From Escherichia coli (GTDB lineage Bacteria > Pseudomonadota > Gammaproteobacteria > Enterobacterales > Enterobacteriaceae): a DNA stretch of 64,000 nt. Shown in pieces: positions 896-2,341 of the stretch. The stretch is from the NCBI RefSeq assembly GCF_022846255.1, contig NZ_AP025682.1, one strand, 5' to 3'. The notes beneath the pieces were generated by a model. It made no database searches. It saw only the letters and a program-made list of their open reading frames with translations, and was not told where the DNA came from. Position numbers and translations under genes: made by a program. The stretch's first letter is position 1; each line of letters starts with the position of its first letter.

Positions 896-2341
896 CTATT
901 TTTTAGCATTCGCATCCAGCGGGGCGGCATAACAACTGTAAGAAAAACATTCGCTGGAATGATTGGCGATATCTTTAAAGTTGCTTTCAGCAACCCCCTC
1001 GAACATGAGTACCGTTCTGGATAACTCTCCGTTGTCATTTATATGTGGAAAATCAAATTGTGTACTGAATCGCCATACATCTGTCTTTTCTGGCTCGCTG
1101 TTCACAGAGATACGTCGATGGATGGCTCCTCCTGAAAACGTGCGCCAGAACAATTGTTGATCAAAATCTTGTAATATCGCACACTTGGATGCTATTTGAC
1201 GTAGTAAACCTGCATACCGTGGACTGCCATTACGAGCAACATTATGCAAACCCTGACTAAAAGCATCAAACAAACAATAGATATGATCACTAGTGAAAAA
1301 AGGTCTTAATTTTTTTTGTTCTTCATCGCTGTAATCCAGGAGCATCTCATTGATTTCTTCCGGTGAGAATTTTAAGACAAAATTATCCTCAGGATTTGTT
1401 TCTTTCTTGTTTTTTTCACTATTCTTCTCCTCAATGGTCTTCGCATTTTGTTTCGCAATTTTTTTCGCATTTTCTTCCTCAGTTTTTTTCGCAATTTTTT
1501 CCCGAGTTTTTGGTTTTAGACTAACACCATCGATGTCAACCGGTGTTGTTTTCAGATCTCTCTGCGCGTCTTTCAAATTTGTCTTATAGAGATCGGGCAC
1601 TTTATCGGCAGATAAGTATCCGGATGAAGAAATCTGGTGTGTACGCATGGGGGGCTGTTCACAAAGCATCGAGGCTATATCGTCTTTAAACTCTTTTACA
1701 TTAAAGTTATCGGCATTAACCTTCCCTGTTATAAACCCCGCATCGGCAATTTTCTTCTCTAATTGTTTTGTACGTTTAGAATAATAAGCGTTGTTATCAT
1801 AAAACTTTTCAAGAAGGGCCCACTCCTCAAGCTGCCTTATGTGATTTTTCAACTGTTGATGATCTATTTTATATTCATGTGTACTAGAATCATTTTGGTT
1901 GCAAGAGTTACAGATTTTTAAGCATAATTTTCCATCAGATTTATCATCTATGGTATCAGTGAAAATATAGGACACTTCAATATTCTGCCCGTTCTTATCA
2001 GTCATCTCATATGACCATTGCCCCGTTCGTTTCGCATTCTTAATGAGTTCGATGGACTCTGCAGGACAACCATGAAGAATGGGCAGAATTTTATCAGGAT
2101 GCTTAATGAGTAAAATCATTATATTTACAATATTTGAAAAGAAATCTTTGCTATTTTTTATTTCATCGATTTTTTCCGCTGAAATGTTTACTAAGTTTTC
2201 ATTTCCGGAAATGAAAAGCAATTTGCCATGGGGGCTTTTTTTAAATTGTTCTTCTGTTTTAGAAAAGACATCCTCTTTAAAAGGTGGCAACTCAGTACCA
2301 GTAATAAACGGTTTCAATAAATTCGAATTTGAAATTGTCAT
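896..2341 (-). CDS. hypothetical protein, 481 aa, no K-12 counterpart at this locus; low-GC, K/E-rich repetitive central segment
   Basis: Uninterrupted 1446-nt ORF; ATG at 2339-2341 (minus) preceded by GGAG about 7 nt upstream; visibly AT-rich relative to flanking malZ and acpH; lies in a junction that is gene-free in K-12 as I recall it. No recognisable family by eye. Confidence 0.7.
   Translation of the reverse strand: MTISNSNLLKPFITGTELPPFKEDVFSKTEEQFKKSPHGKLLFISGNENLVNISAEKIDEIKNSKDFFSNIVNIMILLIKHPDKILPILHGCPAESIELIKNAKRTGQWSYEMTDKNGQNIEVSYIFTDTIDDKSDGKLCLKICNSCNQNDSSTHEYKIDHQQLKNHIRQLEEWALLEKFYDNNAYYSKRTKQLEKKIADAGFITGKVNADNFNVKEFKDDIASMLCEQPPMRTHQISSSGYLSADKVPDLYKTNLKDAQRDLKTTPVDIDGVSLKPKTREKIAKKTEEENAKKIAKQNAKTIEEKNSEKNKKETNPEDNFVLKFSPEEINEMLLDYSDEEQKKLRPFFTSDHIYCLFDAFSQGLHNVARNGSPRYAGLLRQIASKCAILQDFDQQLFWRTFSGGAIHRRISVNSEPEKTDVWRFSTQFDFPHINDNGELSRTVLMFEGVAESNFKDIANHSSECFSYSCYAAPLDANAKK

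What the first reader, a model, noticed from the sequence alone, without database searches (positions are those of the whole stretch)
896..2341. Low-GC 481-aa ORF of unknown function inserted at the conserved malZ/acpH junction
Seen in sequence: an uninterrupted 1446-nt ORF on the minus strand with a good start context (GGAG about 7 nt upstream of ATG); it ends about 20 bp from the acpH stop and starts about 185 bp downstream of the malZ stop. The gene is visibly AT-rich compared with the flanking core genes. The protein has three parts: an N-terminal region of about 270 aa, a central highly charged K/E-rich low-complexity segment (KIAKKTEEENAKKIAKQNAKTIEEKNSEKNKK), and a C-terminal region of about 150 aa rich in aromatic and His residues (...HIYCLFDAFSQGLHNVARNGSPRYAGLLRQIASKCAILQDFDQQLFWRTFSGGAIHRR...). 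I see no Walker, HEPN, nuclease, GGDEF, Fic or other signature by eye. Established knowledge (recalled, not checked): in K-12 malZ and acpH are directly adjacent. Inference: a horizontally acquired single-gene cargo with no integrase or transposase next to it, the pattern expected for compact accessory genes such as standalone antiphage or abortive-infection proteins or toxin-like effectors. I cannot assign a function or confirm that it is undescribed.
Basis: partly seen in the sequence, partly recalled or inferred. Interest (0 to 1): 0.85.

Follow-up and report, generated by a model that had tools for sequence, protein, structure and literature searches.

The report
Orphan E. coli gene between malZ and acpH
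A real, AT-rich, 481-codon gene found only in about a fifth of E. coli/Shigella genomes (it is ECs_0454 in O157:H7 Sakai) sits in a 1.66-kb insert between two core genes; it resembles no known protein family or anti-phage system, so its function remains open.

Summary
A 1446-nt ORF (896..2341, minus strand; GC 0.37 against 0.52-0.56 for neighbours) lies in a 1657-bp insert (870..2526). The insert replaces 10 bp of the K-12/CFT073 acpH-malZ junction.

- **Distribution:** 1127 of 5426 complete E. coli genomes carry it, always as one chromosomal copy. All seven carriers whose junctions I read share the same ones, which suggests a single origin. RefSeq calls it "hypothetical protein" (ECs_0454 in Sakai).
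- **Homology:** it is an orphan. Pfam, NCBIfam, PADLOC, PHROGs, PDB, 1.84 billion cluster representatives, phages and true plasmids gave nothing beyond Escherichia/Shigella. AlphaFold models were unusable (pLDDT 38-46).
- **Evolution:** dN/dS is 0.74 (malZ 0.06, acpH 0.03). Even so, no nonsense codon appears in at least 186 substitutions (about 9 expected). Natural indels are in-frame, mostly 12-nt repeat units in a K/E-rich spacer. At least 95% of sampled carriers keep the frame. The frame is under selection; the sequence barely is.
- **Motif leads:** my OTU-like and transglutaminase-like readings of the Cys356 motif failed Pfam and hhalign tests.

My best reading is a conditionally expressed, niche-specific accessory protein with a module-spacer-module build. 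The mechanism is unknown. Interest is moderate to low.

The parts
870..2526 (.). The insert (1657 bp). It replaces the 10 bp TTATAA(A/G)ACG of the empty acpH-malZ junction, supplies the last Leu codon and stop of acpH, and has no clear terminal repeats.
   Evidence: Junction alignments against K-12 and CFT073. Junctions are the same, apart from scattered point differences, in the window and six other carriers.
896..2341 (-). 481-aa orphan ORF, the ortholog of ECs_0454 (O157:H7 Sakai, 92% identity). The protein is soluble: no signal peptide and no transmembrane segment.
   Evidence: pI 6.2, GRAVY -0.69, maximum 19-residue hydropathy 1.43.
2349..2352 (-). Shine-Dalgarno GGAG, 7 nt upstream of the ATG.
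   Evidence: Read from the sequence.
2342..2446 (-). Upstream region that must hold the gene's own promoter. There is no strong sigma-70 consensus. A possible extended -10 (TGGTATTCT) was seen by eye only.
   Evidence: The promoter scan found nothing on the minus strand here at 9 of 12 matches. Sequence. The promoter assignment is inference.
2447..2494 (-). Hairpin with a 12-bp perfect stem, 33-80 nt downstream of the malZ stop. It is probably the malZ terminator, and the insert brought it in.
   Evidence: MFE -30.4 kcal/mol, z = -3.25. Absent from the K-12 junction.
1517..2341 (-). N-terminal module (aa 1-275). Predicted as helices, then four beta-strands (aa 108-160), then helices. Holds invariant H90, C92, C144 and C147. 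Residues 102-158 weakly resemble PKD repeats.
   Evidence: Secondary structure from a low-confidence model. PKD lead. Invariant residues.
1391..1516 (-). Charged K/E-rich spacer (aa 276-317; K+R 0.33, D+E 0.19), partly predicted helical. It is the most variable part of the protein.
   Evidence: 32 of 40 positions in aa 281-320 vary.
1409..1511 (-). In-frame tandem repeat (12-nt unit AAAAATTGCGAA = K-I-A-K; core 1440..1500). Its copy number accounts for most protein lengths, which range from 461 to 493 aa, mostly in 4-aa steps.
899..1390 (-). C-terminal module (aa 318-481). Predicted as five helices followed by four beta-strands. aa 401-480 is among the best conserved stretches.
1214..1285 (-). 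Conserved motif H353-x2-C356-LFDAF-x-Q-x-L-x-N-x2-R-x-G-S-P-R-Y. It is kept even in the very divergent L007 allele. H408 (codon 1118..1120) and D421 are invariant downstream.
   Evidence: Tests for OTU and transglutaminase-like membership were negative.
294..875 (+). acpH (core gene), convergent with the ORF.
2527..4344 (-). malZ (core gene), upstream of the ORF on the same strand.

Best explanation
**Shown.** This is a genuine protein-coding gene of foreign composition.
- It entered the acpH-malZ junction apparently once, as a 1.66-kb insert with no mobility genes.
- It is restricted to part of E. coli/Shigella.
- It is kept open by selection, although its amino-acid sequence is only weakly constrained.

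**Inferred.**
- It then spread among lineages by homologous recombination through the flanking core genes.
- The combination of intact frame, dN/dS near 0.75, AT-richness and no good promoter fits a gene that is silent most of the time (xenogeneic silencing) and used only in a particular niche.
- The product is a soluble cytoplasmic or non-Sec-exported protein built as module, charged helical spacer of variable length, module.

**Mechanism I commit to (about 0.2-0.25 on its own).** It acts on a non-self partner (host, phage or competitor) as an effector-type protein.
- The N-terminal module recognises or delivers.
- The K/E spacer sets the reach.
- The C-terminal alpha+beta module, with invariant Cys356 and His408, is the active head.

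It is not a member of any described defence, toxin or effector family.
For: **Real gene.**
- 481 open codons at 37% GC, with a coding-like GC1 > GC3 pattern.
- Zero nonsense codons in at least 186 substitution events, where 8.9 are expected (P about 1e-4; conservative subsets give P 0.003-0.03).
- All natural indels are 12, 36 or 84 nt.
- 56 of 59 evenly sampled carriers have lengths divisible by 3, despite ten A/T runs of 6 nt or more.
- The "frameshifted" ESDR8 allele differs only by +/-1 changes inside A7-A8 runs, so it is probably a sequencing error.

**Weak amino-acid constraint.** dN/dS is 0.74, against 0.06 for malZ and 0.03 for acpH in the same genomes. Variable sites per codon position are 0.143/0.101/0.151.

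**Single origin.** Junctions are the same in the window and six other carriers, and the empty-site structure is shared by K-12 and CFT073.

**Later spread.** ORF dS is 0.051, against 0.10-0.12 in the flanks. The window and SCU-111 share a 99.9% identical ORF but differ by 5.8% at malZ synonymous sites.

**Restriction.**
- Only one full-length 50%-identity cluster among 1.84 billion representatives.
- No relative in GTDB species representatives.
- None in phages or true plasmids.

**Architecture.**

**Motif.** The Cys356 motif survives in the divergent L007 allele. C356, H408 and D421 are invariant in 141 distinct alleles.
Against: - There is no expression evidence of any kind.
- dN/dS is close to 1 even across the Cys356 motif region (0.98 for aa 331-400, L007 against the window). 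That is what a functionless sequence would show.
- 56% of all positions are invariant among the 141 alleles, so invariance of C356 and H408 is weak evidence.
- Pfam finds no cysteine-hydrolase family even at E <= 10.
- hhalign against a transglutaminase-core profile gives 0.4% probability.
- 79% of complete genomes lack the gene, and one O55:H7 strain has deleted most of it.
- The nonsense test rests on only 10 alleles.
Confidence: 0.4

Rival explanations
1. Nearly neutral passenger. The gene is a xenogeneic relic with no present function. It drifts, is being lost, and its frame is still open only because too little time has passed.
For: - dN/dS is 0.74 overall and 0.9-1.0 in several regions, with variable sites almost evenly spread over codon positions.
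- No homologues anywhere.
- Absent from 79% of genomes, and partly deleted in O55:H7 USDA5905.
- No consensus promoter.
- Low AlphaFold confidence.
Against: - About 9 nonsense substitutions are expected and none is seen.
- Only in-frame natural indels occur.
- At least 95% of 59 sampled carriers keep the frame, despite five A7-A8 runs that should slip readily.
- The 133 full-length proteins retrieved are 466-493 aa long; with the locus translations they make 141 distinct alleles.
- Intact 489-aa copies are listed for Shigella dysenteriae, a lineage known from general knowledge for gene decay.
Confidence: 0.22
2. Type III secretion substrate. The protein is an effector delivered by the LEE or ETT2 injectisome into host cells.
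For: - It is a low-GC single-gene islet in the backbone. That is the same genomic style as espY3 (ECs_0472, annotated "T3SS effector-like protein EspY"), which lies 14 kb away in Sakai. CFT073 lacks both islets.
- The N-terminus MTISNSNLLKPFITGTELPPF has 48% S/T/N/P/I in the first 25 residues (32% for the whole protein), no acidic residue before position 17, and no Sec signal.
- It evolves fast and carries an in-frame repeat, as some effectors do (general knowledge).
Against: - No similarity to any effector family in Pfam or NCBIfam.
- It is present in human commensal, porcine ETEC and environmental strains. By my recollection these types usually lack LEE; I did not check the individual genomes.
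- No relative was found outside Escherichia/Shigella in the searches run. That would include the LEE-positive E. albertii and Citrobacter rodentium if they are represented there.
- The N-terminal enrichment is modest, given the protein's overall composition.
Confidence: 0.12
3. Standalone anti-phage defence or abortive-infection protein.
For: It is an accessory single gene of foreign composition with variable presence and rapid sequence change. Functional screens (general knowledge) have shown that some E. coli defence genes are single genes outside defence islands.
Against: - No PADLOC hit at E <= 1, and no recognisable nuclease, ATPase, protease, TIR, SIR2 or HEPN domain.
- Fixed at one locus in one species, never on phage or plasmid.
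- Flanked by core genes, not by other defence genes.
Confidence: 0.08
4. Chance ORF or annotation artefact. The real functional element would be the AT-rich DNA or an RNA.
For: Weak amino-acid constraint. Synonymous divergence is lower than in the flanks, which could hint at constraint at the DNA level.
Against: - The probability of 481 open codons at this composition is near 1e-15.
- A good RBS is present.
- The frame is preserved across lineages and indels.
- Rfam finds nothing credible.
Confidence: 0.02

Closest known systems
ECs_0454 (NP_308481.1) of E. coli O157:H7 Sakai; RefSeq WP_001764299.1 and many sibling "hypothetical protein" records
   Same: The same gene at the same locus: 92% identical in Sakai, 99.9% identical at DNA level in SCU-111.
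   Different: Nothing. These are database records with no function attached. No paper in the searchable library names the gene.
Backbone single-gene islets of O157:H7 that encode T3SS effector-like proteins, such as espY3 (ECs_0472)
   Same: Low-GC, single gene, no mobility genes, wedged between core genes 14 kb away, and absent from CFT073. By my recollection the espY3 islet is also absent from K-12.
   Different: No sequence similarity to EspY/SopD or to any other effector family. Translocation is untested.
Papain-like thiol hydrolases: OTU deubiquitinases (Cys loop DGNCLF; triad C...H-aromatic-D/N, PMC7396840) and transglutaminase-like cysteine proteases (PF01841)
   Same: By eye only. CLFDAF follows a His/Asp-containing turn at the start of a predicted helix. 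An R-x-G-S-P-R-Y stretch recalls the GIPAR motif of PF01841. The spacing is Cys356-52 aa-His408, then 13 or 22 aa to Asp421 or Asp430. The helices-then-strands order also fits.
Single-gene anti-phage systems catalogued in PADLOC-DB v2
   Same: A compact accessory gene with patchy distribution.
   Different: No model matches. There is no mobile or defence-island context, and the gene is confined to one species.
PKD (Ig-like beta-sandwich) domains
   Same: Residues 102-158 (four predicted strands) align at 31% identity to two of the three PKD repeats of metagenomic protein P0139, and at 24% over a longer stretch to the third.
   Different: The E-value of 9e-7 comes from summing three near-identical repeats. 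Pfam PKD models do not hit the ORF itself.

Membership tests
OTU deubiquitinases (Pfam PF02338 and related C64/C65/C85 families) | Significant match to the family profile | tested here: not met
   Pfam scans of the window protein and of six alleles gave no OTU hit even at E <= 10. A PDB sequence-profile search found no OTU chain.
OTU deubiquitinases (Pfam PF02338 and related C64/C65/C85 families) | Catalytic triad C ... H-aromatic-D/N/E on one strand (PMC7396840) | tested here: not met
   The only H-x-N candidate is H433-I-N435. It has Ile instead of an aromatic residue, and His433 is Tyr in 5 of 141 alleles.
OTU deubiquitinases (Pfam PF02338 and related C64/C65/C85 families) | OTU fold | tested here: inconclusive
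Transglutaminase-like / papain-like cysteine proteases (PF01841) | Profile similarity across the Cys, His and Asp motifs | tested here: not met
   hhalign of the C-terminal alignment A4 against a 30-sequence PF01841 alignment A6 gave probability 0.4%. There is no Pfam hit. Caveats: A6 is one narrow subfamily, and A4 has Neff 1.1.
Transglutaminase-like / papain-like cysteine proteases (PF01841) | Invariant Cys at a helix N-terminus, with His and Asp on following beta-strands | tested here: inconclusive
   C356, H408 and D421 are invariant in 141 alleles, but so are 56% of all positions. The secondary structure comes from low-confidence models.
Known anti-phage defence systems (PADLOC-DB v2) | Match to a defence-protein model | tested here: not met
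   Zero families at E <= 1.
Known anti-phage defence systems (PADLOC-DB v2) | Defence-island or mobile-element context | tested here: not met
   Neighbours are acpH, queA, tgt, malZ, proY and brnQ. No phage or plasmid copies exist.
Known anti-phage defence systems (PADLOC-DB v2) | Protection against phage | not testable with these tools
   Needs a plaque or liquid-infection assay.
Type III secretion effectors | Homology to a known effector family | tested here: not met
   No Pfam or NCBIfam hit.
Type III secretion effectors | N-terminal secretion-signal character | tested here: inconclusive
   48% S/T/N/P/I in the first 25 residues, against 32% for the whole protein. No dedicated predictor was available.
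Type III secretion effectors | T3SS-dependent secretion or translocation; co-occurrence with a T3SS | not testable with these tools
   Needs reporter-fusion assays and whole-genome co-occurrence data. Carriers include strain types that usually lack LEE by recollection, not checked here.
Mobile elements (IS, integrative island, prophage remnant) | Transposase or integrase, terminal inverted repeats, target-site duplication, or a tRNA attachment site | tested here: not met
   The insert holds one ORF and no recombinase. The ends carry only an imperfect 6-bp repeat, TGAAAC/TAAAAC. Phage and PHROG searches were negative.
Radical SAM enzymes (CX3CX2C) | Profile match and an invariant three-Cys motif | tested here: not met
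   C140-x3-C144-x2-C147 is present, but Pfam gives no hit, and C140 is Trp in one allele.

The most novel reading that the evidence does not exclude
The gene founds an Escherichia-specific protein family with a new fold. It would be an effector- or defence-type protein whose two heads are separated by a K/E-rich helical spacer, and the length of that spacer is tuned by an in-frame 12-nt repeat. Selection would keep the frame open while antagonistic co-evolution drives near-neutral-looking amino-acid turnover. The invariant Cys356/His408 pair would be a previously unrecognised thiol-hydrolase active site.
Probability: 0.12. Interest if true: 0.65.

Novelty: new member of a known kind. Interest (0 to 1): 0.3.

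Why it matters
If the protein has an activity, it would be a species-restricted function carried by about a fifth of E. coli genomes, including O157:H7, O145, O55:H7 and Shigella dysenteriae. Nobody has named it. Its pattern of an intact frame with almost free amino-acid change makes it a clean test case for how orphan genes are maintained. As it stands, it is one of many uncharacterised accessory ORFans of E. coli. The practical gain from this work is threefold: the defence/toxin label should not be attached to it, its exact boundaries and distribution are now known, and the experiments that would settle its status are simple.

Tried and rejected
**Family libraries (all negative).**
- Pfam: full length and six alleles.
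- NCBIfam.
- PADLOC.
- PHROGs: one 32-residue hit at E 0.006 to an unknown-function family, ignored.
- PDB by sequence and by profile.

**Remote homology.**
- phmmer against 1.84 billion representatives found only E. coli fragments plus one PKD-repeat protein. I treat that hit as inflated by repeat summation.
- A search with the divergent central block of allele L007 found nothing more distant.
- Two GTDB species-representative scans were negative. Only four peptide patterns were used, so sensitivity was limited.

**My own hypotheses.**
- OTU-like Cys loop: rejected at profile level, and by His433 variability.
- Transglutaminase-like core: rejected by hhalign, with the caveat of shallow profiles.
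- Internal duplication of the N- and C-modules: none.
- Radical-SAM-like CX3CX2C: no support.

**Other checks.**
- RNA element in the insert: only a sub-threshold miRNA-model match on the hairpin.
- "Frameshifted" RefSeq annotations: one traced to homopolymer length errors, the other to a single-base deletion.
- Hit H30, which looked like an alternative junction, is a strain that simply lacks malZ.
- Literature searches for locus tags and for the junction returned nothing.
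Full report
**1. 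Observation.**

The window holds an uninterrupted ORF at 896..2341 on the minus strand (481 aa, ATG start). GGAG lies 7 nt upstream of the ATG. The ORF ends 20 bp from the acpH stop and begins 185 bp after the malZ stop.

GC falls to 0.32-0.43 across the ORF, against 0.50-0.58 on both sides. This is the most AT-rich kilobase of the 64-kb window. GC3 is 0.349, against 0.57-0.65 in acpH, malZ, proY and brnQ. Rare codons are somewhat more frequent than in those genes, and the GC1 > GC3 pattern is coding-like.

The protein is hydrophilic: pI 6.2, GRAVY -0.69. It has no signal peptide and no membrane segment.

**2. Boundaries and origin.**

In K-12 and in CFT073 the convergent acpH and malZ genes are 4 bp apart. 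Base-level comparison shows that carriers differ from the empty site from the last Leu codon of acpH onward. Carriers read GCG|CTC TGA AAC TTCAAG..., and empty sites read GCG|TTA TAA (A/G)AC G. The two rejoin exactly at the malZ stop codon.

- The insert is therefore 870..2526 (1657 bp) and replaces 10 bp.
- It brings its own stop codon for acpH.
- It brings a 12-bp-stem hairpin just downstream of malZ (dG -30 kcal/mol, z -3.25). This is most simply a terminator for malZ.
- It carries no recombinase and no inverted ends, only an imperfect 6-bp repeat, TGAAAC/TAAAAC.

The window and six other carriers from different backgrounds have the same junctions, apart from scattered point differences. 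This points to a single insertion event.

**3. Distribution.**

1127 of 5426 complete E. coli genomes carry the ORF. 1125 of them cover at least 80% of it, and every copy is chromosomal, one per genome. Carriers include O157:H7 (ECs_0454 in Sakai, 92% identical), O145, O55:H7, porcine ETEC and O139 strains, human commensals such as SCU-111, and water and bird isolates. Protein records also list Shigella dysenteriae. K-12 and CFT073 lack it. Every record annotates it as "hypothetical protein".

There is no copy in 50,697 phage records. The only two "plasmid" hits are 4.9-Mb records, which are presumably mislabelled chromosomes.

**4. It is an orphan.**

- Pfam, NCBIfam, PADLOC, PHROGs and PDB sequences give nothing significant.
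- phmmer against 1.84 billion 50%-identity cluster representatives returns one full-length cluster (E. coli) and 20 fragments that are 66-97% identical. It also returns one 947-aa metagenomic protein whose three PKD repeats each align weakly to residues 102-158.
- I regard that E-value (9e-7) as inflated by summing similar repeats. It is at most a hint that residues 100-165 form a small beta-sandwich.
- Two scans of GTDB species representatives found no relative. Sensitivity was limited to four peptide patterns.
- No paper in the searchable library mentions the locus tags or the junction.

**5. Anatomy of the protein.**

An alignment of 141 distinct full-length alleles shows 211 of 481 positions varying. 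Three parts can be distinguished.

- **N-terminal module (aa 1-275).** Predicted as helices, four strands at 108-160, then helices. It holds conserved blocks such as KNAKRTGQWSYEM and invariant H90, C92, C144 and C147.
- **K/E-rich spacer (aa 276-317).** K+R is 0.33, it is partly predicted helical, and 32 of 40 positions in aa 281-320 vary. It is encoded by an in-frame 12-nt tandem repeat. Repeat copy number gives proteins of 461-493 aa, mostly in steps of four residues.
- **C-terminal module (aa 318-481).** Predicted as five helices followed by four strands. The last 80 residues are among the best conserved stretches.

**6. Evolutionary signal.**

I took 10 intact alleles from complete genomes and used the flanking genes of the same genomes as controls.

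| Gene | dN | dS | dN/dS |
|---|---|---|---|
| ORF | 0.038 | 0.051 | 0.74 |
| malZ | not computed | 0.102 | 0.06 |
| acpH | not computed | 0.121 | 0.03 |

By region, ORF dN/dS runs from 0.44 to 1.0. Variable sites are spread almost evenly over codon positions: 0.143, 0.101 and 0.151. Even the highly divergent central block of allele L007 shows dN about equal to dS.

Taken alone, this looks like neutral drift. The frame, however, is protected.

- With the observed mutation spectrum, 4.8-5.1% of substitutions would create stops. At least 186 events occurred and none did. About 8.9 were expected, giving P about 1e-4. Without L007 or the repeat region, P is 0.003-0.03.
- Every natural indel is 12, 36 or 84 nt.
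- Among 59 carriers sampled evenly down the ranking, 56 have match lengths divisible by three. This holds although the ORF contains ten A/T runs of 6 nt or more, five of them A7-A8.
- Two RefSeq "frameshifted" alleles were inspected. One has three +/-1 changes, all inside A7-A8 runs, which is typical of sequencing error. The other has a single-base deletion.

I conclude that truncation is selected against, while most missense changes are tolerated. That pattern is expected for a protein used rarely or conditionally, or for one in an arms race.

The ORF's synonymous divergence is half that of its flanks. In addition, the window and SCU-111 share a 99.9% identical ORF but differ by 5.8% at malZ synonymous sites. 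Both facts suggest that the insert spread between lineages by homologous recombination after a single acquisition. Constraint at the DNA level is an alternative I cannot exclude.

**7. Attempts to find a mechanism.**

Reading the sequence, I noticed that SDHIYCLFDAFSQGL resembles the OTU Cys loop. The stretch C356-LFDAF...R-x-G-S-P-R-Y, followed by H408 after 52 aa and D421/D430 after a further 13/22 aa, also resembles transglutaminase-like Cys-His-Asp cores. Both resemblances came from memory and were then tested.

- **OTU.** No Pfam or PDB profile hit. The only H-x-N candidate has no aromatic residue, and its His433 is Tyr in five alleles. Not met.
- **Transglutaminase-like.** A remembered consensus retrieved genuine PF01841 proteins at E about 1e-33. 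hhalign of their alignment against the C-module alignment gave 0.4% probability. Not met, with the caveat that both profiles are shallow or narrow.

What remains is limited. The motif around Cys356 is retained in the very divergent L007 allele. C356, H408 and D421 are invariant in 141 alleles, but so are 56% of all positions. The helix-then-sheet order is compatible with a papain-like core. This is a lead, not a finding.

No internal duplication links the two modules. The CX3CX2C motif at 140-147 has no radical-SAM support.

**8.

Horizontal acquisition of a single gene with no mobility function is supported. The defence/abortive-infection/toxin reading is not.

- No PADLOC model matches.
- There is no defence-island or mobile context.
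- There is no partner gene.
- The distribution is confined to one locus of one species.

A type III effector reading has slightly more circumstantial support. The islet style matches espY3, 14 kb away in Sakai. The N-terminus is S/T/N/P/I-rich and free of acidic residues, with no Sec signal. Against it, the gene occurs in strain types that by recollection usually lack LEE (not checked genome by genome), and it has no detected relative outside Escherichia/Shigella.

**9. Verdict.**

This is a real, selection-maintained, Escherichia-restricted orphan gene, already catalogued as hypothetical protein ECs_0454. It sits in a precisely delimited 1.66-kb insert.

Its most likely status is a conditionally expressed, niche-specific accessory protein of module-spacer-module design that acts on a non-self partner. 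The specific biochemical mechanism is unknown, and my two structural guesses failed their tests.

It is a new, uncharacterised example of a familiar class: lineage-specific ORFan islets in the E. coli backbone. Interest is moderate to low unless an activity is shown. The curious combination of a protected frame and nearly free amino-acid change is the feature most worth following up.

Noticed in passing
window 1409..1511 (core 1440..1500): An in-frame 12-nt tandem repeat inside the ORF (K-I-A-K / K-T-A-E units). Its copy number differs between strains, giving proteins of 461-493 aa, mostly in 4-aa steps.
   Followed up: yes
locus L007 2697..4082 (E. coli 23CRST031): A mosaic allele. Its ends are about 95% like other alleles, but a central block (aa ~262-395) is far more divergent (dS up to 0.88) and lacks most of the K/E spacer. 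The donor is unknown, and no more distant relative was found in the 5.8-billion-cluster search.
   Followed up: partly
window 896..2341 compared with 294..875 and 2527..4344: Synonymous divergence of the ORF (0.051) is half that of the flanking acpH (0.121) and malZ (0.102) in the same genomes. Transitions and transversions are about equal (90:97). Either the insert coalesces more recently, having spread by recombination, or there is constraint at the DNA level.
   Followed up: partly
locus L003 31539..33110 (O157:H7 Sakai, ECs_0472): A second low-GC single-gene islet, espY3 (annotated "T3SS effector-like protein EspY"), lies between pgpA and yajO, 14 kb from ECs_0454. CFT073 lacks both islets.
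   Followed up: partly
locus L013 894..2634 (O55:H7 USDA5905): A deletion fuses the truncated 3' end of malZ to the last 334 nt of the orphan ORF. This strain has lost both functions.
   Followed up: no
window 32326..35274 (-): An intact 982-aa ORF in a low-GC stretch (35-36 kb, GC 0.395). It corresponds to the gene annotated as an autotransporter outer-membrane beta-barrel protein in SCU-111.
   Followed up: no
window 43105..52427, compared with SCU-111 (L016): Next to lacI the window carries a block of about 9 kb with eight or nine ORFs whose sizes fit the mhp operon. SCU-111 lacks this block. SCU-111 instead has an IS1397 between araJ and mak that the window lacks. The two strains nevertheless share a 99.9% identical orphan ORF.
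   Followed up: no
window 25001..26000: The second most AT-rich kilobase of the window (GC 0.388), in the phoA-ddlA interval. Not examined.
   Followed up: no
loci L008 (NCTC10444) and L010 (ESDR8): RefSeq marks the ORF as "frameshifted" in both. In L010 all three differences are +/-1 changes inside A7-A8 runs, so they are probably assembly errors rather than real pseudogenes. L008 has a single-base deletion.
   Followed up: yes
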